A stretch of 64,000 bases of DNA from the NCBI RefSeq assembly GCF_054482525.1, contig NZ_CM137006.1; one strand, written 5' to 3'. The notes beneath the pieces are model-generated. The model searched no databases, was not told the origin of the DNA, and saw only the letters and a program-made list of their open reading frames with translations. The position numbers were made by a program, and so were the translations under genes. This document shows positions 3,775-63,711 of this stretch, piece by piece; within the stretch, counting starts at the first letter, position 1; each line of letters starts with the position of its first letter.

Positions 3775-4200
3775 TCACTCCACCAGCAATAATTTATAAA
3801 GCGGTTGATTCTCTTCAACCAAATCGGCAAGCGTGTAGTTATCCAGTTCCGTAAGAAAACTTTGCACGGCCTTAGAAAGCGCCTGTTTCAACCGACAGGC
3901 AGGTGTAATGTGGCAAAACTCACTGCTGCAATTCACCAGCGATAAGGGCTCCAGCTCGCGCACCACATCACCAATACGTATCGCACTCGCCGGTTTACCC
4001 AGACGAATGCCGCCATTTTTTCCACGAACAGCAGTCACGTAGCCGGCACGACTAAGTTGATTGATTATTTTGACCATATGATTACGGGAGACGCCGTAGA
4101 CGTCAGTCACTTCAGAAATACTGGTCATCCGCCCTTCTGGCAATGACGCCATGTAGATCAGCGCACGTAATCCGTAATCAGTGAAACTCGTTAACTGCAC
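3775..4200 (-). CDS. nsrR: Nitric-oxide-sensitive Rrf2-family repressor NsrR
   Basis: 141-aa ORF with an Rrf2 winged-helix N-terminus and a cysteine cluster; position between purA and rnr. Confidence 0.92.
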
Positions 4201-46888: not shown

Positions 46889-46964
46889 GCCCGGATAGCT
46901 CAGTCGGTAGAGCAGGGGATTGAAAATCCCCGTGTCCTTGGTTCGATTCCGAGTCCGGGCACCA
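46889..46964 (+). tRNA. pheU: tRNA-Phe (anticodon GAA)
   Basis: 76 nt GCCCGGATAGCTCAGTCGGTAGAGCAGGGGATTGAAAATCCCCGTGTCCTTGGTTCGATTCCGAGTCCGGGCACCA; copy name assumed from position after yjdC. Confidence 0.96.
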
Positions 46965-46973
46965 AATTCATAT

Positions 46974-47001
46974 AAACGGACCTCCACGGAGGTCCGTTTT
47001 T
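46974..47001 (+). terminator. Rho-independent terminator downstream of tRNA-Phe
   Basis: Hairpin aaacggacctccacggaggtccgttttt with a trailing T-run. Confidence 0.85.
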
Positions 47002-47161
47002 CGTTTCAGAACGCCACGATTTAAGCGTTCTGCCTACAAATCAATTCTACCGAACTCAACCAGATTCCCCCCACATCAACCCCATTGTGTGGGTATAATT
47101 GCGGGTATACCCCAGTTCGACAGAATTTGTACCCTCTTTAACGCATTCAGAAGGCTGAACT

Positions 47162-48427: not shown

Positions 48428-48652
48428 CTGAACGCCATTTACACACATGCTCTTCCTCTTAAGGGGAAGAGCACCCGCCTCAATCAATTTCTTTTTTATG
48501 CCGGCGGAACCATCAGCCAGGCTGAGGTTCTCATTCAATAACTCAACGTCTTACCACAGAACAGAATTCACTGTATTATCATGGGCAACGTTAATCCCGG
48601 ACAATAAAAGGACACCGATGCCAGGCATCACAATTTTTATAGCCTGCAGATT

Positions 48653-49726
48653 ATGGTCCATCCTTTTTTACAGGTTCAGAATATGACTGGCAAATTACGC
48701 TTTGAAGTGAACGATAACCAGGGCTGTTTCATATTTTCGGAAACCTGGTTTGGCTCGTTGCTGGATGAGTTTGAAGAACTGATTGATGCATACGATGCGG
48801 ATGAAATCAGCGAAACAAGTTACATCAACAAACTCAGGCGCCTTGCCCGACAGGAGAATGACTTTATTGATGTACACGCTCACTTGGCATACGTATTTCT
48901 GGAGCAGAATGCCCCGCGTAAGGCGCTGAATGCTGCCCTTAAAGGGCTGGCAGTTGGCAATCGTCTTATCCCTGAAGGTTTCAGTGGCAGAATCATCTGG
49001 ATACATCCTGACAACCGACCTTTTCTTCGTGCCCTCTATGCGGCAATCCTGGCAAATGCACATTTACGGCGTCATCAGGATGCCATCATGCTCATTGAAA
49101 AAATACTGGATTACAATCCCGAAGATAATCATGGTGCACGCTGGCTACTGGGACCGGAACTGTTACGCACTGGCGCTCATGAACAGGCACGCCATATACT
49201 GCAGGAACATGCAGATGAATTTTCACCTTACTGGTATGAACTCGGCCTTCTGCATTTTCTTAATGGGGAACTGGTAAAAGCTGCAACTGCATTTCGTCGC
49301 GGCTTTGCGGCAAATACTTACATCGCAGAAATACTGTGCGGAAATCTGCATCCATTTCCACTTGCTGTATGGCATAACTTTTCAGGCGGTCCGGATACTG
49401 CCGAAGATTATTATGCCACATACCACCCGTTATGGGGGCAATATCCGGAAGCATTGCTGTTTGTAAACTGGCTCTATAATCATTCCTCTGTGCTGCATGA
49501 ACGGGCAGAAATCATTAAATGCGCCGAAATGCTGATGCAGGAAGATGATTTCGAAATATGCGAAAGTATTTTAAGACAGCAGGAGAAGTTGCGTGAAAGA
49601 ATTGATGAGACGCTTTCTGAGAAAATTGTACAGAAATGCAGAAATATGAATGGTGAATATGTCTGGCCCTGGATATTGCCGTTTTCAGCGGCAGGCATGA
49701 AACATACTGGCATACAGTATCAGTAG
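48653..49726 (+). CDS. Hypothetical protein, helical/TPR-like repeats, function unknown
   Basis: 357-aa ORF (alternative start 48683 MTGKLRFEV); TPR-like helical repeat segments (for example WYELGLLHFLNGELVKAATAFRRGF); no catalytic motif recognised. Confidence 0.6.
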   Translation: MVHPFLQVQNMTGKLRFEVNDNQGCFIFSETWFGSLLDEFEELIDAYDADEISETSYINKLRRLARQENDFIDVHAHLAYVFLEQNAPRKALNAALKGLAVGNRLIPEGFSGRIIWIHPDNRPFLRALYAAILANAHLRRHQDAIMLIEKILDYNPEDNHGARWLLGPELLRTGAHEQARHILQEHADEFSPYWYELGLLHFLNGELVKAATAFRRGFAANTYIAEILCGNLHPFPLAVWHNFSGGPDTAEDYYATYHPLWGQYPEALLFVNWLYNHSSVLHERAEIIKCAEMLMQEDDFEICESILRQQEKLRERIDETLSEKIVQKCRNMNGEYVWPWILPFSAAGMKHTGIQYQ

Positions 49727-49797
49727 ATATTGCATTAGTGTATCCTGCACACAAGTAATAATTTATCCACCAATAATAACACTGTTAATGTCCCCTT

Positions 49798-49840
49798 CCC
49801 CTGGTTGTCAGCCAGGGGTTATCTTCTGAATATTTCTTTT
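49798..49840 (+). terminator. Putative intrinsic terminator after the 357-aa ORF
   Basis: Hairpin cccctgg-ttgtcag-ccagggg followed by a T-rich tract (ttatcttctgaatatttctttt). Confidence 0.55.
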
Positions 49841-50085
49841 GAAAAGGATAACACAGTAAATTATTTTTATGAATTATCCCATGGACTCATTAACACCCTT
49901 TCATAATGCTTTATTGTCAAACACGTTATGGCTGACATCAAAAAAAACCGGATTTCCTCTGCCAGCGGGTAATCACCTCCCCGGTGTTTTCGGTTGGTCT
50001 GGTTACTCCTGTCTGGTTATGAGCAAGATAATTGCTATAAACAGTGGAAAACTCATCGTACATAATCTGGTGATGAACATTACGC

Positions 50086-51588
50086 TTATTTTCCCTTGAC
50101 CGGAAGAATCAGAGGCTGCGGTTTCAGACTGTCTGCCGGTACATTCCTCTCTCCGTTAAAAACCATAACGGGTTCATTATCTTCGTCTGTCAGCAGATTG
50201 AATGGCGGTATATTTTCAGTACGAATGCCGGTCAGCCACTGAAAAATACCTGCGAAATGACGGGCACTGATTTTTCTGCTGACGGACTGATGAGACGTGA
50301 TGTCACTGGCGGTAATAATCAGGGGAACGCTGTAGCCTCCCTGCACATGACCATCATGATGAACAGGATTAGCACTGTCGCTGACCGACAGACCATGGTC
50401 AGAAAAGTAAAGCATGGCAAAATGACGGGAATGCCGGCGAAGGATACCATCAAGCTGCCCGAGAAAGTTATCCAGTTTACTGATGCTGGCGAGGTAACAG
50501 GCAATCTTCCGGGGGAACTGCTCCTGGTAATTATTCGGCCAGGAGTGAAGCCGGTCACACGGGTTCGGATGAGACCCCATCATGTGCAGGAATATCACCT
50601 TCGGAGAGGATTTATCCGCCAGCGCACGTTCTGTTTCCTGTAACAACAACATGTCATCCGTTTTACGGGAAGCGAAGCTGCCTTTCTTGAGGAAAACGGT
50701 ATGCTCCGCATCAGAAGCAATAACAGAGATGCGTGTGTCATGCTCTCCCAGTTTTCCCTGATTGGATATCCACCATGTGCTGTATCCTGCTTTTGCTGCC
50801 AGCGCCACCACGTTGTTGCCGGAATCAGGGTTCTGCTCATAGTCATAAATCAGTGTCCGGCTCAGGGAAGGCACAGTACTGGCTGCTGCCGATGTATAGC
50901 CGTCAATAAATAAACCGGGAGCAGTATTCAGCCACGGTGTGGTTGGCACGGGATAGCCATATACCGACATATAATCCCTGCGCACACTCTCACCAGTGAC
51001 GATAACAATCGTGTCATACAACGGTACACCCGGCAGGATTTTCCAGTTGTCAGCCCCGTGCTGATTCAGTTGTTTATAACGCTGCATTTCACGCAATGTG
51101 TCAGTTGTCCCCACAACAGTTCCTTTAACCATCCGCAACGGCCAGCTGTTTACTGAGCATAATACGAACAGCAGCAGTGCCAGCCAGTTACGGTGACCAC
51201 GGCGGTGTGTTCGCCAGAAAATCACCATGAATACCTGAATCGCGGCACTGACCAGAAAATGATAAACAGGAATCATCCCGGTAAACTCCGCTGCCTCATC
51301 AGTTGTGGTCTGCAGCAACGCGACAATAAAACTGTTGTTGATTTTACCGTACGTCATACCGGCAGGCGCATACAGTGCACAACAGAACAGAAATAACAGC
51401 GCTGTAATGGATGTGAGGGTATTTCTGTGTGCAAGGAGCAGAAGAAGGAACAGCAGCAACACATTCCCGGTGGCATTCTTCTCAGTGTATCCGCATGCAA
51501 TTGTGGTTATTGCAGAAACGACAAAAAAGAATAAAAACAATAAAATCCGGGGGGTGTTACCCGGACAAAACAGTTTTCTGATATTCAT
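50086..51588 (-). CDS. Phosphoethanolamine-transferase-like membrane enzyme (sulfatase/alkaline-phosphatase superfamily, EptA/OpgE-like)
   Basis: 500-aa ORF; N-terminal multi-TM region, then a soluble domain with transferase-like motifs (TGESVRRDYMSVYGY and HMMGSHPNP); AT-rich. Confidence 0.7.
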   Translation of the reverse strand: MNIRKLFCPGNTPRILLFLFFFVVSAITTIACGYTEKNATGNVLLLFLLLLLAHRNTLTSITALLFLFCCALYAPAGMTYGKINNSFIVALLQTTTDEAAEFTGMIPVYHFLVSAAIQVFMVIFWRTHRRGHRNWLALLLFVLCSVNSWPLRMVKGTVVGTTDTLREMQRYKQLNQHGADNWKILPGVPLYDTIVIVTGESVRRDYMSVYGYPVPTTPWLNTAPGLFIDGYTSAAASTVPSLSRTLIYDYEQNPDSGNNVVALAAKAGYSTWWISNQGKLGEHDTRISVIASDAEHTVFLKKGSFASRKTDDMLLLQETERALADKSSPKVIFLHMMGSHPNPCDRLHSWPNNYQEQFPRKIACYLASISKLDNFLGQLDGILRRHSRHFAMLYFSDHGLSVSDSANPVHHDGHVQGGYSVPLIITASDITSHQSVSRKISARHFAGIFQWLTGIRTENIPPFNLLTDEDNEPVMVFNGERNVPADSLKPQPLILPVKGK

Positions 51589-51647
51589 CGGAGTATATCG
51601 ACAACATTATTATGAAGAGAACAGGATAATAAAAATCAGAAATTATC

Positions 51648-51692
51648 TGTAAAACAGATAAAAGACAACCCTGCAGTAATAGACTGCAGGGT
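51648..51692 (-). terminator. Putative intrinsic terminator after the outer-membrane protein gene
   Basis: Perfect hairpin accctgcag-taataga-ctgcagggt with a T-run following it on the minus strand. Confidence 0.6.
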
Positions 51693-51769
51693 ATTTCTGT
51701 TTAATTGCAGAAGATATGCAATTATCTTAATTACAGAATATACGCAATTATCGTTCAGGAGCAGTGTCG

Positions 51770-52510
51770 TCAGAAGTTATAAGTCATACCAAGCATGATG
51801 TCATGACTTTTAACATCAACTTCTGACTTATATTTATCGCCCCACTCGTCCTTGTAACTCACACTGCTGTCACCTGCATCAAGATAGCGATAGCTGAGGT
51901 CCAGAGCGATATCCGGGGTTACGTCATAGCGGACACCCGCGCCAAGGCTCCATGCGAAGTTGTCAGCAGAGCCTGAACGTGACAACGATTCGCGACCACT
52001 GCTTCCGTACTCATAATCCCAGGTACTGATACCGGTTGTTTTCTGGTGAATTCTGGCGTAGCCAATCCCTGCGGATACCCATGGTGTGAATGCGCTGTCA
52101 TTCCGGAAGTCATAGTACGCATTCAGCATTAGTGTGTTGACTGACACCTCATTCTTCAGGTCATCACGCCAGTAACCACCTGACCAGCTGTCTTTATCTA
52201 CGTTATACTTCGAATCAGCTTTTCCACGAGCGTAAAACTCCAGTTCTGTTCGAACCGGAATACTGAACTGCGGATAAAAATCATAACCAGCCGCGATACC
52301 ACCACTGAATACCGTATCATGGTCATCGCCGCCTTTATACTTTGACGTTTCTTCCTCATCTCCTGACAGGAAATGCTGGTCTGAAAGTGACACCACAGAG
52401 GTACCGGCTTTACCGGTCAGATAAAAACCGCTTTTACCTTCCTCAGCACCTGCATTTGCTGCAAATACACAGGCTGTGGCCACCACTGAAACAGCAAAAA
52501 CCTTTTTCAT
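51770..52510 (-). CDS. Outer-membrane beta-barrel protein of the Hek/Hra/Tia (opacity-adhesin/invasin-like) family
   Basis: ORF 51770..52525; start MKKVFAVSVVATACVFAANAGA (signal peptide); alternating amphipathic beta-strand pattern; C-terminal barrel signature ending in Phe (LGMTYNF). Confidence 0.65.
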   Translation of the reverse strand: MKKVFAVSVVATACVFAANAGAEEGKSGFYLTGKAGTSVVSLSDQHFLSGDEEETSKYKGGDDHDTVFSGGIAAGYDFYPQFSIPVRTELEFYARGKADSKYNVDKDSWSGGYWRDDLKNEVSVNTLMLNAYYDFRNDSAFTPWVSAGIGYARIHQKTTGISTWDYEYGSSGRESLSRSGSADNFAWSLGAGVRYDVTPDIALDLSYRYLDAGDSSVSYKDEWGDKYKSEVDVKSHDIMLGMTYNF

Positions 52511-52727
52511 TTCAATTATCTCCATTATTGTATCATCATTTTAATATATATTTTTAATATTTAAAAACCGGACTAAAGGCAGCCTCAACACTCCACACTA
52601 CGGAAGCCAGACTTTTACTCTACACAAAATAAATATATCTTCTCAGTGAGGACGTGAACGCCTGTCTGAAATTATGTGAATACAACCTCCCCAGAATACA
52701 AACAGGCAGGGGCACTGGAGTAACCGA

Positions 52728-53096
52728 TCACAATACTTCTGCCTTTTTATATTTTACCGATAATCTCCGTTTAATATAGTTCTTACCGATTTCATAATCG
52801 GGGTTCCATGTAGATAAATTATGAACACCTATTGCTACTGCACTCGCCACTCCCAGAATTACGGTTGGTGACCATAAAGAACCAGCTAAAGCTGTACTCC
52901 TGTACTCAGTATATACACGACAACTTAATTTCGTTTTCTCTATTTCATGCTCCACTCTTTTTACCGTTTCACTAACATCGGAAACATTTTCGATCACAAA
53001 ACTCTTACGTTCATAAATAAGCTTGCTTAATGTATTTATATCTAAAAATTTCGCATCAAAAGAATCAATCTGTACTGTTTTTTCTTGTGCTGACAT
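52728..53096 (-). CDS. Hypothetical protein with a single C-terminal TM helix
   Basis: 122-aa ORF in an AT-rich segment; hydrophobic stretch ALAGSLWSPTVILGVASAVAIGV; no recognisable domain. Confidence 0.45.
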   Translation of the reverse strand: MSAQEKTVQIDSFDAKFLDINTLSKLIYERKSFVIENVSDVSETVKRVEHEIEKTKLSCRVYTEYRSTALAGSLWSPTVILGVASAVAIGVHNLSTWNPDYEIGKNYIKRRLSVKYKKAEVL

Positions 53097-54404
53097 CTTC
53101 TTTTCCTGGCTGGTATGGCAAGTGACGGAGACAAGAGAAACGTTTTAAGCTCAGTTATCTCCGCCATCACTTTCCACGAATGACAAGTAATTTTGCCTAT
53201 TTTAAAACCATGCAAAAGGCAGGGTAAAAGGAGAAAATTCGATCGAATCGATCGACAAAATCGATCATACATGATGAAGATTTTTTATCGAATCCATAAA
53301 AATAGTGACAGCTAACCGGCGTTGCAGGAACAGTCAGAAATGGGCGTTTGGGAAAGAGCCATAGCACTACGTCGTCGCTGACATAGAGGAACTGTGCTTT
53401 GTTGATAAGATCCTTTATACGGCAACCAATCCACTGGACAAAAGATGAACTACGTAATCACCGGGTTCTCACTGACGAAATACAGAAGTTAATGACACAA
53501 CTGTGCCATGTACCTTGTACAACAGCGGTGGAAAGCTCTCAGAACAATGGAATTGCAGAAAGGTGTTAAAACGATGAAAGCCTTCATACCCAAATCGAAT
53601 GTAAGAACGGCAGTAAAGACTGAATTGCGTAACCTTGCATTAGCTCGAGTATTACACTGCATAGTGTGCAGGGTTATCTCCCATCGAGAAAATATCGGCG
53701 CCAGCGAATAACGTCACCTTAGATGTAGCAGTTGCCAAATAGTGACTCAAGGGCGGGCTTACCGCATACACTGACACTTAGCGGATCGACAGAATATTAT
53801 TAGCAGATCATCCCTGAACGCAACGTAATTATCGTAATAAAGGCTTTTTCTGGCTACCAGGAAGATCTGACATGGCTCTGCTCTGGAACCAGGCCGCAGG
53901 AAGCATCAATCTGGAGTTTATCAGCTACTGGAATTCCGGTGTATTGGCAGCCCCTGATAATCACCTGACCCACGAAGAGCGCTCTGCTTTGCAGAAACTC
54001 TGGGGCGGTTTGGAGACAGGAGATGCCATTTAACGATTATAGGACGTTCTGATGAAGTCCATGATTTTACCTCCGCCTTAATTAACTGTTTTCTTTCTGA
54101 AGAAGAGATTGTCTGGTGGCAATCAGGTGGCATTTTCCCGGATCCCTGGCCCGCTAATATATCCCGGCTGAACTGACGATTAACGCGATATTGCAAATAT
54201 GGCATCTGAATCGATCATGATTTGGCGGCATCCATCTCCGTTCACAGTTTGGCATGCTTCCGATCATTGATTGGCATCCAGCCAGTCACTCCGGGAATTA
54301 ACTCTTTTCACCGCAGTCTCCATTGCCGTGTTTAAACCAATGGAGACGTCAATGTCCAAAAAGAGAATATCCAGGAGCACTATGGATACCTGTTTTAAGA
54401 TCCT

Positions 54405-54623
54405 TCAGCTCAAGTTCGACCAGAAGCTGGCTAACCGTTGTATCGGACTTGCAAAACACCAATGGGGATTGATCTCTATTTTGCGACACAGACGCATTAT
54501 CAATACATCGATGGTGCGATCAAATACCTCAGTGCTCTCACCGTGGATCAAATCCAGCAATTGCTCACAGATTAAGACTCGTCGGGAGTTTTGAGCCAAC
54601 GCCAGCAGTAAACCCATATTCAC
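54405..54623 (-). pseudogene. Fragment of a winged-helix (OmpR/ToxR-type) DNA-binding domain; probably a gene remnant
   Basis: 72-aa ORF containing ...EQLLDLIHGESTEVFDRTIDVLIMRLCRKIEINP, matching the recognition-helix and wing pattern of OmpR-family output domains; no receiver domain or full-length ORF around it. Confidence 0.4.
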
Positions 54624-54954
54624 CTTGAGTGAAATCTACAGGCTGTTGATGAGCATCAACCAGCACGTAACGGTCCGGGATCAAGTGTCCAGCCGTTAAA
54701 AAAACCACTCTACTACCCTGCTCGACCTAAGCCTCGGCGTTCAGCCGCCTGAACGGGTATGGCAAGGGTGAAAAGAAACAGCATCCCCAAAGTACCGACC
54801 AGACGACAGGATGATGCTGGAACAGAAAGCATACGCACCTCCCTTAGAATTAGACAGTGCGTACAGGATACGTAAGACAGGGTGACGGGGCGGCGATAAA
54901 CCCCGAACACATGGCAGAGTGTGACCACCGGATAATGCGCTCTGAGTTTCCCGA

Positions 54955-55269
<315 letters not shown>

Positions 55270-55285
55270 TTATGTTGTGGTGAGA

Positions 55286-55328
<43 letters not shown>

Positions 55329-55329
55329 A

Positions 55330-55700
55330 AACGACATTCGTGCCGGATGCACTGGAGCAGGCAGTATGGGCCGTCGTCCATCTGGCACCATCCATCACAG
55401 TAATAAAGGTTCTCAGTATGTATCGCTGGCCTACATGCAGCGACTTAAGGAAGCCGGATTACTGGTATCAACAGGGAGTCCTGGCGACTCGTATGACAAC
55501 GCGATGGAGGAGAGCATCAATGGTCTTTACAAAACGGAGGTAATACACCGTAAGAGCTGGAAAAAACCGGACAGAAGTGAAACTGGCCACACTAACGTGG
55601 GTGGACTGGTATAACAATCGACGATTACTGGAAAGGCTGGGCCATATTCCTCCGACAGAAACAGAAAAAGCTTATTATGCCTCCATCGGAAACAATGATC
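55330..55700 (+). pseudogene. IS3-family transposase orfB C-terminal fragment (frameshifted), opposite orientation to the orfA remnant
   Basis: Translation HHSNKGSQYVSLAYMQRLKEAGLLVSTGSPGDSYDNAMEESINGLYKTE, then in another frame LTWVDWYNNRRLLERLGHIPPTETEKAYYAS; DDE integrase-core C-terminus. Confidence 0.7.
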
Positions 55701-56034
55701 TGGCAGCCTGAGTTCACAGATAAAATACTCTCCAGGAAAACCGGGATGGTTCACCGGAGTGTTAAAGTGTGGCTTAAAATTATGCAGTTGCCGCCTGGCG
55801 GTCAAGACTGTCGCTACAGGATAAATCGCTCCGGTGAAACACAACTGCGCAAATCACCATACTGTGCATACGTATTACCGTGAAGGAGATCGGTGAGTTA
55901 CGGGGTTATTGGGTGATCTCCTTCCATGAAAATACGCAGAGCACTTAAATCGCTGCTGGCGCGCACTAAAAACGTGTCAACCTGGTTCCATTAGCGTAAC
56001 ATCAAAGCGAGCACTTAAGAAGCAGAAGAGCAAC

Positions 56035-56751
56035 CTACAGGTTAACCCGAACCATATTAAATTCATAATCTTTTAACTGCTCAGACCTGATCACCAGAAA
56101 TCTGCCATTACCTGACTTAAATGATTTTGATAAAACAAGTGTGGTATCATATCTGGCTAAAACATAATACCACCCGTCATTATAATTCATCATTTCATAT
56201 TCTTTCTTGAATTGCGGCTTGTAAAAGCCAACAGAAAATGAAAAAACCCAGAAATATATGACAAAGCCGACAAGACATATTTCAGAAATATGTTTCTTTA
56301 CAAAGATACTCTCTGAAAAACATGATGCTGAAACACGGTGGCCACAGGTTCTTATAAGAAAAACAAGAATAAGGGATACCGCTACTGATAAGGTAAGAAG
56401 TTTTAATGCCAGATGATTCTTTAGCACAGAGAACTCAATCACCACCGGAACAAACAATAAGAATGAGGCAAGAAAAAGTCTGAAAAAGCTCAATTCATGC
56501 ATGCTTGCTTTGTTTTTTATTCCAAGAAAGAAAAGTACTCCCGCGCCCCATGAGAGAAACAGGATGACCATTATAGTAATTGCATGAAACAGGCTTCTTG
56601 CAACATCGTCAATACCTGCACTGACAACCCACCATGGGAAACCATAATAAAAAGAGACACCCCACCCGTAAAAATATGCACTTCCCCATCCGAGACATCC
56701 CATATAAGCCACAAATAAGGAAGAATTTTTGAGCAACGCGTTGCTGTTCAT
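56035..56751 (-). CDS. Hypothetical polytopic membrane protein, function unknown
   Basis: 238-aa ORF in a strongly AT-rich segment; about five predicted TM helices rich in aromatic residues, then a roughly 60-aa soluble C-terminus; no recognisable family. Confidence 0.5.
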   Translation of the reverse strand: MNSNALLKNSSLFVAYMGCLGWGSAYFYGWGVSFYYGFPWWVVSAGIDDVARSLFHAITIMVILFLSWGAGVLFFLGIKNKASMHELSFFRLFLASFLLFVPVVIEFSVLKNHLALKLLTLSVAVSLILVFLIRTCGHRVSASCFSESIFVKKHISEICLVGFVIYFWVFSFSVGFYKPQFKKEYEMMNYNDGWYYVLARYDTTLVLSKSFKSGNGRFLVIRSEQLKDYEFNMVRVNL

Positions 56752-57243
56752 TTTTACCCCTGTAAAACTGGAATAAGTAACAGAATAGCATTGACATTGT
56801 CAAGATGAACAGCATGCATTGTAACAGTCTGCAGCTTATGTTCTCCGTGGATAATTATTCTTATTTCATGGTGATTTTTGTTATATTTTAAAATGCATAT
56901 CTCACCATTTAGTTTTTTATATCACAAAAACATAGTGATGCAATCATACACACCTGCCTCTATCGTACAGAGAAAACGGGCAATTATTTGTATTATTCCT
57001 TCATAACGACTTCAGTATACAGGATGACCGCAACCACGCTCCTTCTCCTGCCCGGGCGAAGTGCCTGGTTCAGACAATGACATTAACTGGCTGAAATTTT
57101 CGACGCGGTACAGGTCTCCCTGCTTTGAAAGGTGCCTGGCGCTGCAATTTTTTATCATTTGTTTTTGTATCCGGCAAAACACGTCTGCAAGAATCATTAT
57201 TCTCTTGCCTGAAGCTATCCGGCATCCTCAGGCATTTCACGCT

Positions 57244-57795
57244 TTATGAGCTGACATCATCAAGATGCGCCAGTAATTTTTTATTAATGACTTCAAACAG
57301 TTCCTGTTCATCATGGGTCAGATAATCCCAGATTTCTTTCAGATACATGCTTTGTGCAAGAGTGAGCCTCTGAATAAAAAACATACCTTCAGATGTCAGA
57401 CTGATTTTTTTAGCACGGCGATCCTCCCTGCTATCCATCCTTTTTACATACCCGGCTTTTTCTAAAAAATCTGTAATGCGGGTAATATTAGTTCTGGTAA
57501 ACTGCAGTTTCTGGCTTATCTCTGAAGGTGACAGACAATGACTCTCCGCTGTGAATAATGTGGTGAGAACCATGTACACTGAGTGATTTATTCCATACGC
57601 CCCCAGAAATTCAGATATATTATCCTGCATCCTTTTATTTGCGCGAATACAGAGTTGCATCAACAAATGTTCCTGAAAGGGATATGCGGGGTCTTTGTTT
57701 TTTTGGTGTCTGATTATTTTTTCTAATGTGTCTGTGTTATTCATTTCATTATTCTCCATATTACTGAAACACACTGTCTGTGTACAAGCGCGCAT
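57244..57795 (-). CDS. MarR-family regulator of the PapX/SfaX/FocX type (fimbria-linked motility repressor)
   Basis: 183-aa ORF (true start may be internal, for example MENNEMNNTD); MarR winged-helix region ...TRTNITRITDFLEKAGYVKRMDSREDRRAKKISLT; located at the distal end of the fimbrial operon. Confidence 0.7.
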   Translation of the reverse strand: MRACTQTVCFSNMENNEMNNTDTLEKIIRHQKNKDPAYPFQEHLLMQLCIRANKRMQDNISEFLGAYGINHSVYMVLTTLFTAESHCLSPSEISQKLQFTRTNITRITDFLEKAGYVKRMDSREDRRAKKISLTSEGMFFIQRLTLAQSMYLKEIWDYLTHDEQELFEVINKKLLAHLDDVSS

Positions 57796-57941
57796 CAGTC
57801 ATCCGGTAAACTTCGACTTTCCACTACAATTTATTCCTGCCTGATTTCTGTATAACTGAGATATCCCGGCACAGCGGACAGATAAATTTCCTCAGATAAA
57901 AGAACATAAATGCTGGCTGCTGGCAAGTCTGTGAAAAAGGA

Positions 57942-58682
57942 TTATCCATACTGCTCAGTAATCGCGGATAATTCATCAGCTCCCACACGCCTGTAGAGCC
58001 ATCCCTGACAGCCCTGGACATTCATGTCTCTGGCAATACGGAACAACGCTTCATTTTCAACACCTTCAAGTATTACGCCCCGGTTATGACAGGCAACAGT
58101 GTCTGCCACAGCATGGAGAAGCGGCATTGCACTCCTGTTTTTCAGGGCATAATGAAAAAACTCATGACTTATTTTTACCCGTTCAAACATCCCGGACAGT
58201 CCCCACATTAAGCCTGCATTTCCTGAGCCGAAATCATCCAGCCAGAGGGTGAAACGTTCTGACAAAAAACGTAACAGGGGGTCATCACCGGGTTTTAACG
58301 CCACTGCCGGAAAGTCCTCACTGACCTCAAGCCTGATATGTGTTCCCGGCCGCCCCGGGATGCCATGTTTTCTCAGATACAGGGCTACCACCCGGGAAAT
58401 ATTGACACTCAGCATTATTTTCTTCTGCAGACACCATTTATGAAGCGTTTCAGCAGTCTTCAGCTGACTGATGAGTATTTTGTACTGAATATCCGGAGGC
58501 GCACTTCTGAAAAAAACAGATGCGCAGATTTTCCTCCCGTCTTTTGCTGAACGGATATCCGAGAGCATTTCAAAAGCAAATATTTTCCCGGTCTGATTCC
58601 ATACAGGCTCAAAAACCGGTGAGAGGATATATTCTGTTCTGCCTGATTTCACCTCCAGTATACTGTTAACTGCCCCTGACAT
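57942..58682 (-). CDS. Stand-alone EAL-domain protein (SfaY/FocY-like putative c-di-GMP phosphodiesterase)
   Basis: 246-aa ORF with EAL-domain motifs (EML in place of EAL, LWLDDFGSG, ILEGVENE, QGCQGW); between the adhesin gene and the MarR gene. Confidence 0.7.
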   Translation of the reverse strand: MSGAVNSILEVKSGRTEYILSPVFEPVWNQTGKIFAFEMLSDIRSAKDGRKICASVFFRSAPPDIQYKILISQLKTAETLHKWCLQKKIMLSVNISRVVALYLRKHGIPGRPGTHIRLEVSEDFPAVALKPGDDPLLRFLSERFTLWLDDFGSGNAGLMWGLSGMFERVKISHEFFHYALKNRSAMPLLHAVADTVACHNRGVILEGVENEALFRIARDMNVQGCQGWLYRRVGADELSAITEQYG

Positions 58683-58985
58683 TACTCCTCCGGAAATATG
58701 AGCCCCTCCCGACCAGAAGGTCTGGCTGGATAAGCGCAGTTCTTCTGATTTGATTTTTAAACCCTCAGATTTACCATTATCTTTATGATTACTGACAACG
58801 CTCAGAACCAGATATACGGCTCATACTGGTTCTGTTTATCTTTGACAAAGACCATATGACAGACTCGTTCCGTCACAACACCGGAAACAATACTATTATC
58901 AGCTATTTTTCTCCACAAACAGTGATACATTAAATGAAAAACTGGATATAAAGAGCAGTAATATCATTACCGCCACAACTGCATT

Positions 58986-59954
58986 CTAGTTGTAGCTAAA
59001 AGTCACATTTATCACTGACTGGACAGCACCGGGCGTCGGACTTGCCTGACCGGTCAGAGCATAAGAGGCCTTCAGCCCCAGACTCACAGGAGAGCTACCT
59101 ACCTGTCCCAGAGACCTCGGTTGTCCGGCCGGAACCGGCCCCGCGTTGTCCGACAACTGTACACCCACACCGCCGGCCCCTGATGTTGCCGTATTTGCGA
59201 ATACAGTATTACCACTTCCTGTTACAGAACCTGACAGGGTATAGCTGACCGACTGTGTCTGGTCGCAACGTACAGTAAGAGGGACTGTTACCGGCCCTCC
59301 GGGATAGGACGGAAGGTCAACTTTGACATTGTTCGATGAGACCCTGCATGTACCTGTCTGGATATAGACATCATTCGTTGCATAGAAACGCCAGGTGAAA
59401 TTTCTCTCCCCTGCCTCCTGCCCCATGGTGGAAAACTTATTAACATAAACTGTGGCCACTAATTCTCCGGCATGTATCAGTTTCCCGAAAACGCCCGGCT
59501 CAGGATAAAGGTACATTTTTGCCGGGAAAGGTTTCCATACACCATATTGCCAGTAAGCTTCTGTTGGCTTTGTGTCTTGCTGCAGCGGTAACGTCTGACT
59601 ATACCCAGAAAGCCTGTTTGTAAAGTCCAGCCTTCCGTATGTTTTAGCATCTAATGAAGGAGAAAAACCGGTTCCCTGTCTGACCCTGAGATAGTCATAG
59701 TTCTGACCAGAGGCATCTTCATTCTGACATAACACCAGTTGATTTAAATCCAGAACTGTAATGGCTTTATCATACTGAACTGTTGGGGAAAGAGTGATAT
59801 TGAAGCGACTGTCTCCAGACTGAAAAGTCTGCCCTGTCTGGTTATTTCTGCACAACAGTGCAAACGATGGCTGGGAATATGCCATTATAAATGTGAATAA
59901 AACACAGCCCTCGAGGACGGTGCTTTTCTTAAAGAGGGGATAATATTTACGCAT
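58986..59954 (-). CDS. Fimbrial tip adhesin, two-domain FimH/SfaH/FocH-like
   Basis: ORF 58986..60002 (start chosen at MRKYYPLFKK..., uncertain); the C-terminal pilin domain is closely similar in pattern to FimH (...GVGVQL...VSLGL...NVTFSYN); the N-terminal lectin domain is divergent. Confidence 0.8.
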   Translation of the reverse strand: MRKYYPLFKKSTVLEGCVLFTFIMAYSQPSFALLCRNNQTGQTFQSGDSRFNITLSPTVQYDKAITVLDLNQLVLCQNEDASGQNYDYLRVRQGTGFSPSLDAKTYGRLDFTNRLSGYSQTLPLQQDTKPTEAYWQYGVWKPFPAKMYLYPEPGVFGKLIHAGELVATVYVNKFSTMGQEAGERNFTWRFYATNDVYIQTGTCRVSSNNVKVDLPSYPGGPVTVPLTVRCDQTQSVSYTLSGSVTGSGNTVFANTATSGAGGVGVQLSDNAGPVPAGQPRSLGQVGSSPVSLGLKASYALTGQASPTPGAVQSVINVTFSYN

Positions 59955-60450
59955 AGGTATAGGTGACAGTAATTTGTGAATTAATACTTCCCGCACCAGC
60001 ATTACCTTTGCTTACGGCACGGACTTTAAGATTGAATGTCGCCTGCCCATTGCTCACTGTAACAACTTTTGTTGAACCAACTTTCAAGGGGGTATTACCA
60101 TTACCTTGTTCCTGTAGCTCAACCATGATATTAGTAGCATCCCCTGTATTTCTGTAATAATTTGTATTTTCTGCGGTTCCACCAAAGGTGGCAGTAACAT
60201 TGTTTACATTCTGACAATTCGTCAATGTCAACGAAAAATTTTTCCACTGAGAGGTGCTGTTGGCTGCTATCAGGTCAGAAGTGTAAGCGTTATCCAAAAC
60301 AACGGTGGCGTTTGGGTTTCCTCCATTACCAATGGTACAGGTACGTGGCAATACCCTCCCTGTAACAGTAATCGTCGTATCCACTGCCTGTGCTGAAAAT
60401 GCAATACAGTTAATAAGACCGGTGGCCAATATAATAGCTTTCAGTTTCAT
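59947..60450 (-). CDS. Fimbrial minor subunit (SfaS/FocG/FimG-like)
   Basis: 167-aa ORF with a signal peptide, pilin fold and C-terminal beta-strand ending ITVTYTYA. Confidence 0.8.
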   Translation of the reverse strand: MKLKAIILATGLINCIAFSAQAVDTTITVTGRVLPRTCTIGNGGNPNATVVLDNAYTSDLIAANSTSQWKNFSLTLTNCQNVNNVTATFGGTAENTNYYRNTGDATNIMVELQEQGNGNTPLKVGSTKVVTVSNGQATFNLKVRAVSKGNAGAGSINSQITVTYTYA

Positions 60451-60471: not shown

Positions 60472-60999
60472 TTACTGATAGTCAAGTACAAAATTAACCA
60501 CCGCATCAACATTACCGGCCTTTACCGGAAGATAAGTGGCTTTCAGACGGGCATAAAACGCTATGGTCTGTGTTCCCGGCATTAACGCAATTGTTGTCGG
60601 CACATTAATTTTCAGCTCATGTTTATCCTTATCAAGAAGCTGAATCCCCACACCCCGTGCTCCATTTATGCTGTTAATCTGAATAAGCCCCGCCTCCTGA
60701 TTATCTGGTGTGCCCGTAAATGTCAGCTTCACTGCACTGACAGCACTGCCGCAGGAGGTCAACCCGACATGAAATACCGACGCAGGTGTGGTATCACCAG
60801 CTGCGGTAAACTGTCGGCTGTCATAACTTCCCAGACTGACATCAAGGTTTCGGGAGTTAATGTCAACATCGCAGGTGTTATCCTGAACATTGCCTGTAAT
60901 ATTCACCACAGAACCCGCTGCACAGACATGACAGGTAACGAACATACTGCCGGCCAGCATGCAGGAGAATGTCACTGTTTTAATAATATCCTTCACCAT
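60472..60999 (-). CDS. Fimbrial minor subunit (SfaG/FocF/FimF-like)
   Basis: 175-aa ORF with a signal peptide and pilin C-terminus NFVLDYQ. Confidence 0.8.
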   Translation of the reverse strand: MVKDIIKTVTFSCMLAGSMFVTCHVCAAGSVVNITGNVQDNTCDVDINSRNLDVSLGSYDSRQFTAAGDTTPASVFHVGLTSCGSAVSAVKLTFTGTPDNQEAGLIQINSINGARGVGIQLLDKDKHELKINVPTTIALMPGTQTIAFYARLKATYLPVKAGNVDAVVNFVLDYQ

Positions 61000-61011: not shown

Positions 61012-63567
61012 TTACCTGCAACTAACCGTGACATGACTTAATATCTGTCCGGCGCTTTCCTTCGGTAATTTATAATCTGCAGTACACTGGTCCGTGGTCT
61101 GACTCCCCCATTTCACACTAACCTGTCCTGACAGAGGCATTCCGCTCAGATAAACCTGACCATTCTCTCCGGCAATACTGCTCCCCCCGTTTCTGGCCGT
61201 AACAACAGAGCCAAAAGGAACTGCTTTCCCGTTTCTCATCAGCGTCATCAGCACTTTCACACCCACACGGGTTTTATAGTCAGCCCGCACAACGGCACCA
61301 TGCGTGGGCACGACGCTGACCACGGTATTCTCTATATCAACATTATCTGCAAGGGTGTTGGTATCCAGTGCCACCCGGTTTTCACGATAGTCTGTTGCAT
61401 AAGGCAGTACAGCATACCCCCTCCAGTCTGTAGACACCCCCGTCTGGTTTTCAATGCGCGTATCAGATGCACCTGGTGCACGGACAAGAATCAGCGTATC
61501 TCCCAGAGGCTGGCTCAGTGTCAGACCATTGGCATGTGCCAGAATACCGCCACTCAGCCCATAATACAGTTGCCGGTAACCCCCACTGTGACTGTATCCT
61601 GCACTGGCATTACCGTATCCCCCTCTGTAATTCAGAGAGGCATATCCTGTTTTACTGCTCCCCTCATACCCTCCCCGGGTATAACCACTCTGGATGCTGT
61701 ATCCCAGATTATTGTCCCCCAGCAATGTGCCATACAGCCCTGCTGTACTGGCAGCCTGTCCGTGAGCCTCCAGGGTCTGACTGTAACGGGCACTGGCGTT
61801 TCTCCATGCAGATGTGCTGTCCGAACGCATCCAGTGGCTGAACGGAATGCTGACATCAAATGACAGTATCCGGTCAGTTTCATGTTGCCATGCATTCCGG
61901 GACAGGCTGTAGTTCAGGGACCAGCTGATGTCATTCACAGATGAGTTAAAGCCAGCATTAAGCTGACGGTCCGTCCTGTCCGTTCCCCAGTAACTCTGGT
62001 GGCTGCCACTCAGATACAACGTTGACGATTCCCCCGTCTGCTGGCTGATACTCACCTGCACCCTTCCCCGCTTGTTGTAAGCCAGATTGTAGTAATCCGT
62101 ATACTTCGGCTGTATCTGTATCACTCCGTCCTGGGTAAGAACACTGTAACCACTCATTTTCTTCCAGGCGGTATCAGCAAAGCTGAAATAGCCCCGTGTG
62201 GAGTAGCGGTATCCGATTAACTGGATATTTGTCCCTGTTTCCGTCAGTGACTTGTTATACAGAAAACGATATGACTGACCGTCATGCCGGCTTTCATCCG
62301 GTAACCGGGCATTCGCACGGGTGGCATCCAGTGAAACAGCACCCAGCCAGCCCATGTTTTTACCCACCCCCAGATTGAAGGCACGGTAGCGTTCAGCTAT
62401 CCAGGCTCCTCCATACACCGTCCAGCCTGCCGGCAGACCATACTTCAGCGTTCCTTCAGCAAAACGGGGATTATCCTGCTGATGTCCGCCACTGCGAAAC
62501 TCTCCGGCACTGAGAGCATATTTCAGATGTCCTTCACGTTGCAGTACAGGCACCGAAGACCATGGCACATTAAATCGCTGTACACTGCCATCAGCTTCCT
62601 GCAGGGTTACCTGTAAGTCTCCTCCACTCCCGGCCGGATAAATATCGTTTATCTCGAACGAGCCTGGAGGTAGCGTACTCTGGTAAATTTCATACCCGTT
62701 CTGGCGGATACTAATCCGGGATGTTCCCCGGGAAATACCGTGAATTGTCGGTGCATACCCTCTCTGGCTGTCCGGAACCATATTGTCATCAGAGGCCAGT
62801 TGAATACCCCTGAAATTTACACCGTCAAAAATATCCCCCCGGGTATAACTGTCCCCCATCGTCAGACGGGAGCGCAGGGGAACTATATCCCGCTCCAGCC
62901 AGGTGTTAATGTGCTGCCAGTTATTCTGGCTGTACCCCTTTCCGGCACTGTAACTCCAGCTGGTGTTGTCCCGAAGACGCCAGCTCCCGATATTCAGTCC
63001 TGTTTTCAGATTCAGATAGGCATAATCGCTGGTGCCACCATAGCTGTCGCGCACCCGATTACCACTGAAGTCATAATTCAGCAATGCCGCTGTAATTCCG
63101 TTATCCCAGTATTCCGGCGCAATATAACCACGGGCCTGATTACTCATATATATCTGAGGAACGGTCAGGTACAATCGCTGCTGCCCGACATCAAACCGGA
63201 ATGTGGCACCCTGAATCATGGAATTCAGTGATGTGCAGGTGTCAGCCGGCAGTCTCTCCATACCCGGCACGGCATAACGGTTTACCCCCATCGCACTCAT
63301 ATGCTCCGGACTCAGGCAGGGGGCAAGTTGCTTCCCGTCCTGACTCATCTGAAACTGCACGTCACGGGTTGAGATATACGTATCATTCAGATAAATATCC
63401 ACCCGGTACACACCGGGCGGAAGCTCCTGCCCCTGTGTAAATGCAGACAGGTCCGCAACCGCATCCGGGTCATCAGACAGAAAACGCGGATTAAAATAGA
63501 GCTCAGCCCGGGCCGGAGAAACAATTATCCCGATAAAAAATGCCAGCGGCAGTATATTAAATTTCAT
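61012..63567 (-). CDS. Fimbrial outer-membrane usher (FimD/SfaF/FocD family)
   Basis: ORF 61012..63690; start placed at MKFNILPLAFFIGIIVSPARA (signal peptide, preceded by a GGGGG ribosome-binding site); strong collinear similarity to FimD throughout. Confidence 0.9.
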   Translation of the reverse strand: MKFNILPLAFFIGIIVSPARAELYFNPRFLSDDPDAVADLSAFTQGQELPPGVYRVDIYLNDTYISTRDVQFQMSQDGKQLAPCLSPEHMSAMGVNRYAVPGMERLPADTCTSLNSMIQGATFRFDVGQQRLYLTVPQIYMSNQARGYIAPEYWDNGITAALLNYDFSGNRVRDSYGGTSDYAYLNLKTGLNIGSWRLRDNTSWSYSAGKGYSQNNWQHINTWLERDIVPLRSRLTMGDSYTRGDIFDGVNFRGIQLASDDNMVPDSQRGYAPTIHGISRGTSRISIRQNGYEIYQSTLPPGSFEINDIYPAGSGGDLQVTLQEADGSVQRFNVPWSSVPVLQREGHLKYALSAGEFRSGGHQQDNPRFAEGTLKYGLPAGWTVYGGAWIAERYRAFNLGVGKNMGWLGAVSLDATRANARLPDESRHDGQSYRFLYNKSLTETGTNIQLIGYRYSTRGYFSFADTAWKKMSGYSVLTQDGVIQIQPKYTDYYNLAYNKRGRVQVSISQQTGESSTLYLSGSHQSYWGTDRTDRQLNAGFNSSVNDISWSLNYSLSRNAWQHETDRILSFDVSIPFSHWMRSDSTSAWRNASARYSQTLEAHGQAASTAGLYGTLLGDNNLGYSIQSGYTRGGYEGSSKTGYASLNYRGGYGNASAGYSHSGGYRQLYYGLSGGILAHANGLTLSQPLGDTLILVRAPGASDTRIENQTGVSTDWRGYAVLPYATDYRENRVALDTNTLADNVDIENTVVSVVPTHGAVVRADYKTRVGVKVLMTLMRNGKAVPFGSVVTARNGGSSIAGENGQVYLSGMPLSGQVSVKWGSQTTDQCTADYKLPKESAGQILSHVTVSCR

Positions 63568-63711
63568 TCTGTTATTACCCCCGCCAGCAGAGCCGGTCAG
63601 TGATTTATCAGACAGGAGTTGTCCGCCATCTCCGGAAAACATGTCAGCCCCCACACTGAGCGAAAAAATAAAATCAGCAGCCAAACACAACCAGTACCAG
63701 AAATAACTGAG

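What the first reader, a model, noticed from the sequence alone, without database searches (positions are those of the whole stretch)
57244..58682. Fimbria-linked regulatory pair: EAL-domain protein plus PapX/SfaX-type MarR regulator
At the distal end of the fimbrial operon the gene order is adhesin, then an EAL-domain protein, then a MarR-type regulator. That is the sfaH-sfaY-sfaX / focH-focY-focX arrangement, in which the MarR protein represses flagellar genes and the EAL protein is a putative c-di-GMP phosphodiesterase, coupling adhesion to motility. The EAL signature here reads E-M-L rather than E-A-L, so catalytic competence is uncertain.
Basis: partly seen in the sequence, partly recalled or inferred. 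Interest (0 to 1): 0.45.

Follow-up and report, generated by a model that had tools for sequence, protein, structure and literature searches.

The report
Known sfaY–sfaX fimbrial regulator pair

Summary
On the minus strand an FimH-like SfaH/FocH adhesin gene is followed by a 246-aa EAL-only protein (57942-58682), then a 183-codon MarR ORF (57244-57795).

The stretch is 100% identical to E. coli chromosomes where RefSeq names the genes sfaH, sfaY and papX. Full-length sfaY occurs in 253 of 5426 complete E. coli genomes.

The E-M-L reading is right but does not matter. The middle residue varies in proven enzymes (PdeH ELL, PdeL EVL). SfaY keeps all nine catalytic positions: E38, N94, E119, E122, D149, D150, K170, E206, Q226. 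The degenerate YdiV lacks five of them. The one deviation is Asp42 where the Arg of EALxR normally sits, and active PdeH also lacks that Arg.

The protein is 97% identical to IHE3034 SfaY (PdeY), whose overproduction depletes c-di-GMP according to published work.

The MarR protein is 95-98% identical to PapX, SfaX and FocX, published repressors of flhDC.

Two small extras came up. The X gene is an sfaX/papX chimera joining this operon to a pap-type island at tRNA-Phe. SfaY's nearest solved relatives are the anti-FlhDC factors YdiV and STM1697.

Verdict: already known, low interest.

The parts
58986..59954 (-). SfaH/FocH-type FimH-like tip adhesin gene, the last structural gene of the S/F1C-type operon. 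The longest ORF runs to 60002; the RefSeq start gives 322 aa.
   Evidence: ORF list. RefSeq annotation of the identical record as sfaH. 97% identical to FocH and 85% to SfaH.
58683..58985 (-). 303-nt spacer between the adhesin gene and sfaY. As RNA it holds several hairpins (58974-58954, 58877-58855, about 58834-58802). None is a clean intrinsic terminator.
   Evidence: Fold energy -87.9 kcal/mol against -72.1 +/- 4.7 for shuffles, z = -3.35. Terminator-like scan. No Rfam match. 98.8-99.3% conserved in sfa and foc operons.
57942..58682 (-). sfaY (systematic name pdeY): a stand-alone EAL c-di-GMP phosphodiesterase of 246 aa. Catalytic set: E38, N94, E119, E122, D149, D150, K170, E206, Q226.
   Evidence: Pfam EAL. 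RefSeq name sfaY. Catalytic residue table against PdeH, PdeL and YdiV. The same residues are invariant in relatives of 29-37% identity. 238/246 identical to IHE3034 SfaY. GGAGGAG ribosome-binding site.
57796..57941 (-). sfaY-X spacer holding the proximal X promoter. Positions are placed by homology to the start site mapped in CFT073: -35 TTGCCA at 57926-57921, 19-nt spacer, -10 near 57901-57896, start at the A at 57888, 144 nt before the ATG at 57744.
   Evidence: Sequence. The start site 144 bp upstream of the ATG, with a 19-bp spacer, was mapped for papX and focX (PMC6246914). The region is 96-100% identical to the sfa, foc and pap versions. The position in the window is an inference.
57244..57795 (-). 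PapX/SfaX/FocX-type MarR regulator ('X' gene). The ORF has 183 codons. The published 166-aa protein starts at the ATG at 57744. It is a chimera: the 5' part is sfaX/focX-like and the 3' part is papX-like.
   Evidence: Pfam MarR. 95-98% identical to SfaX, PapX and an X variant. 96% identical to IHE3034 SfaX. Residues A35 (FocX type), A97 and M103 (PapX type) in CFT073 numbering. The SNP pattern switches between 57505 and 57456.
56793..57243 (-). Flank downstream of X. It matches the DNA that follows papX in pap islands, not the DNA that follows sfaX (iroN) or focX. Similarity to the sfa and foc contexts ends at 57228.
   Evidence: BLAST and sliding identity. Annotated contexts L005, L006, L007 and L008. 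49 of 5426 genomes share sfaY, X and this flank.

Best explanation
These are the two promoter-distal regulatory genes of an S/F1C-family chaperone-usher fimbrial operon on a tRNA-Phe pathogenicity island of extraintestinal pathogenic E. coli.

sfaY (pdeY) encodes a stand-alone, catalytically competent EAL phosphodiesterase. When the phase-variable operon is ON, it is made by read-through and lowers cellular c-di-GMP.

The X gene encodes a PapX/SfaX/FocX-type MarR dimer. It is transcribed by read-through and also from its own promoter in the sfaY-X spacer. It represses the flagellar master operon flhDC, and SfaX also represses type 1 fimbriae.

Together the two proteins link expression of this adhesin to the cell's c-di-GMP, flagellar and fimbrial networks.

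Shown here:
- gene identity;
- domain content;
- an intact catalytic residue set;
- near-identity to the proteins that were studied experimentally;
- conservation of the mapped promoter region.

Taken from the literature:
- c-di-GMP depletion by SfaY;
- flhD repression by PapX and FocX.

Inferred:
- that this allele, and this chimeric X protein, behave in the same way.
For: ORFs and domains.

100% identity to records annotated sfaH, sfaY and papX.

IHE3034 has the same layout, with SfaY 97% and SfaX 96% identical.

Catalytic residues E38, N94, E119, E122, D149, D150, K170, E206 and Q226 align with those of active PdeH and PdeL. The PdeL numbers obtained (E141, N200, E232, D262, D263, K283, E319, Q339) are the ones I recall from the YahA structural work. 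YdiV has L113, G142, N143, M163 and G199 at five of these positions.

The same nine residues are invariant across relatives of only 29-37% identity.

None of the 8 differences from IHE3034 SfaY falls on a catalytic position.

Literature:
- SfaY overproduction depletes c-di-GMP, and sfaY is part of the polycistronic, phase-variable sfa operon (PMC9602443).
- SfaY is described as a stand-alone phosphodiesterase (PMC6385356).
- PdeY (SfaY) is functional on overexpression in V. cholerae (PMC5635171).
- PapX and FocX repress flhD and have a proximal promoter; sfaX is transcribed from two promoters and repressed by H-NS (PMC6246914).
- SfaX lowers type 1 fimbriae and motility (PMC4217179).
Against: No experiment exists on this exact allele.

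The canonical Arg of EALxR (PdeL R145) is Asp42 in SfaY, with an Arg two residues further on. More distant relatives keep the Arg. This may lower substrate affinity, although active PdeH has Val at the same position.

By sequence profile and by predicted fold, the nearest solved relatives are the non-catalytic YdiV and STM1697.

The Pfam EAL score is modest at 64.8 bits.

The X protein combines FocX-type and PapX-type residues and carries two further changes, Q24 and D140 in 166-aa numbering. D140 is shared with the pap-linked X variant of L008. The effect of these changes is unknown.

The consensus promoter scan did not pick up the published X promoter, because its 19-nt spacer lies outside the 16-18 nt the scan allows.
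Confidence: 0.9

Rival explanations
1. SfaY is a degenerate, YdiV/STM1697-like EAL protein. It does not hydrolyse c-di-GMP and acts only by binding a partner such as FlhD.
For: The nearest solved structures by sequence are YdiV/CdgR and STM1697: E about 1e-9 with the single sequence, and 131-155 bits with the family profile against 64 bits for YahA. The predicted fold superposes best on YdiV, with TM 0.82-0.85 and rmsd 2.4 A, against TM about 0.66-0.70 for active EAL domains. Asp42 replaces the Arg of EALxR.
Against: All nine catalytic positions are present, and YdiV lacks five of them. The family profile scores active PdeH (131.0 bits) as high as YdiV (131.5 bits). The apparent closeness to YdiV in the PDB hit list may therefore partly reflect that no PdeH structure appeared among the PDB matches. 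Overproduction of the 97%-identical IHE3034 protein depletes c-di-GMP (PMC9602443).
Confidence: 0.03
2. SfaY has two functions. It is an active phosphodiesterase that also binds FlhD in the way YdiV and STM1697 do, so the operon would carry two anti-flagellar factors, X acting on flhDC transcription and Y acting on the FlhD4C2 protein.
For: SfaY belongs to the same stand-alone EAL subfamily as YdiV and STM1697. In the helix alpha-8 region, SfaY (NRSAMPLLHAVADTV) resembles YdiV (HRSFEPFIRAIQAQI) more than PdeH does. It keeps F175 (= YdiV F168) and A191 (= A184, where A184E abolishes FlhD binding). L162 and L188 stand at the positions of F155 and F181 (interface residues from PMC3510510).
Against: Only 2 of the 8 interface residues are identical. 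All four polar contacts are changed: H175 to N, E179 to M, R183 to H, Q188 to T. No interaction has been reported. The published phenotypes are explained by c-di-GMP depletion.
Confidence: 0.06
3. The pair is a silent hitch-hiker at the operon's end. It would be cut off from the fimbrial transcript by the structured 303-nt spacer and would have no physiological role in this strain.
For: The spacer is strongly structured, z = -3.35, with three terminator-like hairpins. [quoted passage not shown]
Against: Both ORFs are intact, and every full-length sfaY match shown in the spread list is annotated as an intact sfaY gene (253 genomes hold full-length matches). sfaY has a strong ribosome-binding site. 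X has its own mapped promoter. IHE3034 sfaY and sfaX mutants have phenotypes. None of the hairpins is followed by a proper U-tract.
Confidence: 0.02

Closest known systems
SfaY (PdeY) of E. coli IHE3034 and other S/F1C operons
   Same: Same position between sfaH and sfaX, same length (246 aa), 238/246 identical, identical catalytic residues, same spacers. RefSeq gives it the same name.
   Different: Eight substitutions: N29D, P62S, S184C, H199Y, G234E, T242I, Q244L, Y245H. The C-terminal 'QY' codons match the sfaY relic found upstream of papX rather than the sfa and foc alleles.
PapX / FocX (CFT073) and SfaX (IHE3034): MarR-type 'X' regulators of fimbrial operons
   Same: 95-98% identical, at the same position at the operon's end, with a conserved upstream promoter region. 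A MarR winged helix is present.
   Different: It is a chimera: residue 35 is Ala as in FocX and SfaX, while residues 97 (Ala) and 103 (Met) in the recognition helix and wing are as in PapX. It also has Q24 (not seen in the four X proteins compared) and D140, which is shared with one pap-linked variant.
PdeH (YhjH), the main stand-alone EAL phosphodiesterase of E. coli K-12
   Same: An EAL-only protein of similar size with the same nine catalytic residues. It also lacks the Arg of EALxR. It is the best NCBIfam match (PRK11596, 70 bits), and the SfaY family profile scores it at 131 bits.
   Different: Only 23% identical, and below the family's curated cut-off of 190 bits. PdeH is a core gene of the flagellar regulon (my knowledge), not fimbria-linked.
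YdiV (RflP) of E. coli and STM1697 of Salmonella, EAL-like anti-FlhD4C2 factors
   Same: Nearest solved structures by sequence and by predicted fold. Stand-alone and of similar length. Partial similarity in the FlhD-binding helix.
   Different: They have lost the catalytic residues, and YdiV neither binds nor cleaves c-di-GMP (PMC3510510). SfaY keeps the catalytic residues. About 20% identity.
Other fimbria-linked EAL proteins: MrkJ (Klebsiella type 3 fimbriae), STM0551 (Salmonella fim cluster), FimK
   Same: The same logic: a phosphodiesterase encoded beside a chaperone-usher operon and tied to its regulation (PMC3487979).
   Different: Different operons and species. Not compared by sequence here.
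MprA (EmrR), a chromosomal MarR-family repressor
   Same: The closest curated family model for the X protein: PRK10870, 126 bits over 159 residues.
   Different: Below the curated cut-off of 157 bits, so not an MprA orthologue. Different genomic context.

Membership tests
Catalytically active EAL c-di-GMP phosphodiesterase | EAL (TIM-barrel-like) domain | tested here: met
   Pfam PF00563, residues 20-230, E = 9.9e-18. AlphaFold model with pLDDT 88.8 matches EAL structures.
Catalytically active EAL c-di-GMP phosphodiesterase | Glu of the EAL motif (metal ligand); the middle residue is free to vary | tested here: met
   E38 aligns with PdeH E48 and PdeL E141. The motifs read EML, ELL and EVL. 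E38 is invariant in the family.
Catalytically active EAL c-di-GMP phosphodiesterase | Asn, ExxE, DD(FG), Lys, Glu of EGVE and Gln of QG | tested here: met
   N94, E119/E122, D149/D150 (DDFGSG), K170, E206 and Q226 all align with the PdeH and PdeL residues. YdiV has L113, G142, N143, M163 and G199. All are invariant in relatives of 29-37% identity.
Catalytically active EAL c-di-GMP phosphodiesterase | Arg of EALxR (substrate phosphate contact) | tested here: not met
   SfaY has D42 at this position, with R44 two residues on. PdeL has R145. Active PdeH has V52, so the residue is not indispensable. Relatives from Kosakonia, Yersinia and Brenneria keep the Arg.
Catalytically active EAL c-di-GMP phosphodiesterase | Hydrolysis of c-di-GMP to pGpG | not testable with these tools
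   Literature only, for the 97%-identical IHE3034 allele: c-di-GMP is depleted on overproduction (PMC9602443), and phenotypes were seen in V. cholerae (PMC5635171).
SfaY / PdeY | Near-identity to the described protein, and position between sfaH/focH and the X gene | tested here: met
   238/246 identical to IHE3034 SfaY. Same order and spacing. All E. coli full-length matches are 98.5% identical or more in DNA.
YdiV/RflP-type degenerate EAL anti-FlhDC factor | Loss of catalytic residues | tested here: not met
   SfaY keeps the nine core catalytic positions scored here. At five of them YdiV has other residues. [quoted passage not shown]
YdiV/RflP-type degenerate EAL anti-FlhDC factor | FlhD-contacting residues F155, F168, H175, E179, F181, R183, A184, Q188 | tested here: inconclusive
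   2 of 8 are identical (F175, A191), 2 are conservative (L162, L188), and 4 polar contacts are changed. Binding itself is not testable here.
PapX/SfaX/FocX fimbrial MarR regulators | MarR winged helix-turn-helix, and high identity to PapX, SfaX and FocX | tested here: met
   Pfam MarR 6.7e-11. 95-98% identical to four X proteins. 96% identical to IHE3034 SfaX.
PapX/SfaX/FocX fimbrial MarR regulators | Last gene of a pap, sfa or foc operon, with a conserved proximal promoter region | tested here: met
   Position. The upstream 150-200 nt are 96-100% identical to the sfa, foc and pap versions. The start site was mapped in CFT073 (PMC6246914) and is placed at 57888 by homology.
PapX/SfaX/FocX fimbrial MarR regulators | Binding to the flhD promoter site and repression of motility | not testable with these tools
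   Literature for PapX and FocX (PMC6246914, PMC3430675). The flhD promoter is not in the window.

The most novel reading that the evidence does not exclude
SfaY is an active c-di-GMP phosphodiesterase that has also kept, or gained, the FlhD-binding function of its nearest structural relatives YdiV and STM1697. One fimbrial operon would then deliver two independent brakes on the flagellar master regulator: X at the flhDC promoter and Y on the FlhD4C2 protein. This would also make SfaY a living intermediate between active EAL enzymes and the degenerate anti-FlhDC factors.
Probability: 0.06. Interest if true: 0.5.

Novelty: already known. Interest (0 to 1): 0.1.

Why it matters
The pair is a textbook-level example of cross-talk between adhesins, flagella and c-di-GMP in uropathogenic and meningitis-associated E. 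coli. Nothing in this window changes that picture.

The useful outcome is negative. The unusual 'EML' motif is not a sign of a dead enzyme, so annotation pipelines and readers should not flag SfaY as degenerate. RefSeq's product name 'transcriptional regulator SfaY' is misleading for a phosphodiesterase.

Two minor points may interest specialists:
- The conserved X gene seems to serve as a homology anchor through which whole fimbrial operons are swapped between islands.
- SfaY sits in the same stand-alone EAL subfamily as the anti-FlhDC factors.

Tried and rejected
- Rfam scan of 55500-60100 at E <= 1: no RNA family.
- PADLOC: nothing for SfaY or for the downstream 238-aa ORF. For the X protein it gave only weak hits (E 1e-5 to 9e-3) over residues 46-144, the stretch that also holds the winged helix.
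- NCBIfam: no match reaches a curated cut-off for either protein. RefSeq's names must therefore come from closer rules.
- The consensus promoter scan found no more sites than shuffles give, and it missed the published X promoter, whose 19-nt spacer is outside its range.
- Genomic context of distant relatives: the Kosakonia protein is not on record. The Yersinia relative lies in a core region (opp, cls, EAL, tonB) with no fimbrial genes, so the fimbrial linkage is specific to the E. coli sfa and foc operons.
- The primary papers were not available: Sjostrom et al. 2009 and Reiss & Mobley 2011. Their results are cited second-hand.
- I recalled that PapX residues K54 and R127 are essential, and both are present. 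I could not verify that claim, so I do not rely on it.
- I considered a fused SfaY-FlhD structure prediction. I rejected it because the tool returns no interface confidence.

Full report
**1. Observation**

The minus strand carries, in this order:
- a fimbrial usher (61012-63690);
- two minor subunits (60472-60999 and 59947-60450);
- a FimH-like adhesin (58986-59954, or to 60002 for the longest ORF);
- a 246-aa ORF (57942-58682);
- a 183-codon ORF (57244-57795).

The limits given in the finding are exactly the outer limits of the last two ORFs.

The 246-aa protein has one Pfam EAL domain covering residues 20-230 (E = 9.9e-18) and nothing else. The 183-codon ORF has a MarR winged helix (E = 6.7e-11).

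The EAL gene starts at an ATG five bases after GGAGGAG. The motif does read E38-M39-L40.

**2. Identity**

The 2.1 kb around the pair is 100% identical to the chromosome of E. coli GABEEC132. RefSeq annotates that stretch as sfaH, sfaY ('transcriptional regulator SfaY') and papX.

Full-length sfaY is present in 253 of 5426 complete E. coli genomes. All copies are 98.5% identical or more in DNA, and every one shown in the spread list is annotated as an intact gene. In the large protein collection the SfaY cluster has no relative between 86% and 37% identity, so this is a narrow, E. coli-specific family.

The meningitis strain IHE3034, in which these genes were first analysed, has the same layout with the same spacing: sfaS, sfaH, sfaY, sfaX. 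The window's SfaY is 238/246 identical to the IHE3034 protein, and the window's X protein is 176/183 identical to IHE3034 SfaX.

**3. Is the EAL protein catalytically competent?**

I aligned SfaY with three E. coli K-12 proteins: the active stand-alone enzyme PdeH (YhjH), the active enzyme PdeL (YahA) and the degenerate YdiV (RflP).

SfaY has E38, N94, E119, E122, D149, D150, K170, E206 and Q226. These align with:
- PdeH E48, N105, E133, E136, D158, D159, K179, E215, Q235;
- PdeL E141, N200, E232, E235, D262, D263, K283, E319, Q339.

The PdeL numbers are the ones I recall from the YahA structural work, which supports the alignment. YdiV has L113, G142, N143, M163 and G199 at five of these positions.

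The middle residue of 'EAL' is Leu in PdeH and Val in PdeL, so Met is unremarkable.

The same nine residues are invariant in an alignment with relatives of only 29-37% identity from Kosakonia, Yersinia and Brenneria. This argues that selection has acted on catalysis.

There is one deviation. The Arg of EALxR (PdeL R145) is Asp42 in SfaY, with an Arg two residues later. The distant relatives keep the Arg, but PdeH has Val there and is fully active.

None of the eight differences from IHE3034 SfaY touches a catalytic position.

The literature reports the following:
- Overproduction of IHE3034 SfaY depletes c-di-GMP (PMC9602443).
- SfaY is treated as a stand-alone phosphodiesterase (PMC6385356).
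- PdeY (SfaY) was functional on overexpression in Vibrio cholerae (PMC5635171, citing Sjostrom et al. 2009 and Povolotsky & Hengge 2016).

**4. Relationship to YdiV**

By sequence, the best solved-structure matches are YdiV/CdgR and STM1697. Both are EAL-like proteins that bind FlhD.

A profile of the SfaY family scores STM1697 at 155 bits and YdiV at 131 bits, against 64 bits for YahA. The AlphaFold model (pLDDT 88.8) superposes best on YdiV, with TM 0.82-0.85 and rmsd 2.4 A. Canonical EAL domains reach TM about 0.66-0.70.

However, the same profile scores active PdeH at 131.0 bits, equal to YdiV at 131.5 bits. No PdeH structure appeared among the PDB matches. SfaY thus belongs to the stand-alone EAL subfamily that contains both an active enzyme and the degenerate anti-FlhDC factors, and it has the active-site pattern of the enzyme.

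I also checked the eight YdiV residues that contact FlhD (PMC3510510):
- SfaY keeps two, F175 and A191. A191 corresponds to A184, where the A184E change abolishes binding.
- It has Leu at two aromatic positions.
- It has lost the four polar contacts.

FlhD binding is therefore unlikely but not excluded. This is the basis of the low-probability 'novel case'.

**5. The MarR protein**

The X protein is 95-98% identical to SfaX (sfa and foc operons) and PapX (pap operons).

Luterbach & Mobley (PMC6246914) number PapX and FocX as 166-aa proteins. This places the functional start at the ATG at 57744, which is M18 of the ORF.

They report three differences between PapX and FocX in structural elements: T35A, A97T and M103T. 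The window protein has A35 (FocX/SfaX type), A97 and M103 (PapX type). Its dimerisation end is therefore sfa/foc-like, and its recognition helix and wing are pap-like.

The nucleotide pattern agrees. Informative sites are sfa/foc-like down to 57505 and pap-like from 57456.

PapX and FocX both repress flhD and swimming, and FocX represses papX. SfaX also lowers type 1 fimbriation (PMC4217179). The transcription start mapped 144 bp upstream of the ATG of papX and focX, with a 19-bp spacer between the promoter hexamers. This corresponds in the window to:
- the A at 57888;
- -35 TTGCCA at 57926-57921;
- a -10 near 57901-57896.

These window positions are inferred by homology.

**6. Context**

From 57228 downstream the window no longer matches the DNA after sfaX (iroN in L005 and IHE3034) or after focX (L006). 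It matches instead the DNA that follows papX in pap islands (L007, L008).

After the flank come a 238-aa ORF and IS debris. The more distal genes then occur in the order seen after papG-II and papX in an ST131 strain, and, for the last three, in DETEC-P666:
- a GTP-binding pseudogene;
- a 122-aa hypothetical protein;
- an outer-membrane protein;
- a phosphoethanolamine transferase;
- a 76-aa hypothetical ORF;
- a TPR protein;
- a P4-type integrase;
- tRNA-Phe at 46889-46964.

The simplest reading is that an S/F1C-type operon replaced a pap operon in a tRNA-Phe island by homologous recombination, with one crossover inside the conserved X gene. Forty-nine of 5426 genomes share sfaY, X and this flank.

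Conversely, pap operons retain a relic of about 53 nt from the 3' end of sfaY just upstream of papX. It translates as RRAGE*SAITEQYG*. Roughly 290 genomes show only this fragment. This suggests that the papX module derives from an sfaY-X ancestor.

**7. Mechanism, with levels of support**

Shown here:
- gene identity;
- domains;
- an intact catalytic set;
- a conserved promoter region;
- a chimeric X gene.

From the literature:
- sfaY and sfaX are promoter-distal genes of the phase-variable sfa operon.
- SfaY lowers c-di-GMP.
- X proteins repress flhDC.
- sfaX is repressed by H-NS and has its own promoter.

Inferred:
- When this operon is ON, SfaY lowers c-di-GMP. That relieves c-di-GMP-dependent matrix production and motor braking.
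- At the same time X lowers flagellar synthesis.

The two proteins act on different layers, and with respect to motility in opposite directions. The 303-nt spacer before sfaY is more structured than shuffled sequence (z = -3.35). It may set the level of read-through or transcript stability, but this is untested.

**8. Novelty and score**

The gene pair, its arrangement and its function are published, and RefSeq annotates them by name. The only new details are allele-level: the X chimera and its island context, Asp42, and the placement of SfaY in the YdiV/PdeH subfamily.

- Novelty: already known.
- Interest: 0.1.

Noticed in passing
window 57228-57505 (X gene 3' half and stop), with flank 56793-57243: The X gene is an sfaX/focX-papX chimera, with the crossover between 57505 and 57456. 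Everything downstream follows the context of a pap island at tRNA-Phe. This suggests that a whole S/F1C operon replaced a pap operon by recombination anchored in X. 49 of 5426 genomes share this junction.
   Followed up: yes
L007 about 3987-4039 (papG-II to papX spacer of ST131 strain MB1159); equivalent to window 57942-57995: pap operons carry a decayed relic of about 53 nt from the 3' end of sfaY (RRAGE*SAITEQYG*) directly upstream of the papX promoter region. About 290 E. coli genomes match sfaY only through this fragment.
   Followed up: partly
window 59947-60450 (-): The minor subunit in the SfaS/FocG position is only 60-61% identical to SfaS and to the subunit at that position in a focH-carrying operon. 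RefSeq calls it just 'fimbrial protein'. The neighbouring SfaH-like adhesin is 97% FocH-like. This may be a third receptor-specificity variant of the S/F1C family.
   Followed up: partly
window 58683-58985 (-): The 303-nt spacer between the adhesin gene and sfaY folds much better than shuffled sequence (-87.9 against -72.1 kcal/mol, z = -3.35), with several hairpins and no Rfam match. It could be an attenuator or a transcript-stability element.
   Followed up: partly
window 56035-56751 (-): A 238-aa, low-GC (about 36%) ORF with several hydrophobic stretches lies downstream of X on the same strand. It has no NCBIfam or PADLOC match and is annotated as hypothetical. Its function is unknown.
   Followed up: partly
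window 46889-56000: Island boundary and cargo: tRNA-Phe (46889-46964), a P4-type integrase (47162-48427), a TPR protein (48653-49726), a phosphoethanolamine transferase (50086-51588, minus strand), an outer-membrane beta-barrel protein that I take from memory to resemble Hek/Hra (51770-52525, minus strand), and IS3/transposase and other pseudogene debris (about 53900-55900).
   Followed up: partly
window 57923: A window-specific C (T in the four sfa, foc and pap references) falls in the putative -35 hexamer of the proximal X promoter (TTGCCA against TTGTCA). Both versions match the consensus at 5 of 6 positions.
   Followed up: no
window 57942-58682 (annotation issue): RefSeq's product name for SfaY is 'transcriptional regulator SfaY', although the protein is an EAL-only enzyme with no DNA-binding domain.
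   Followed up: no
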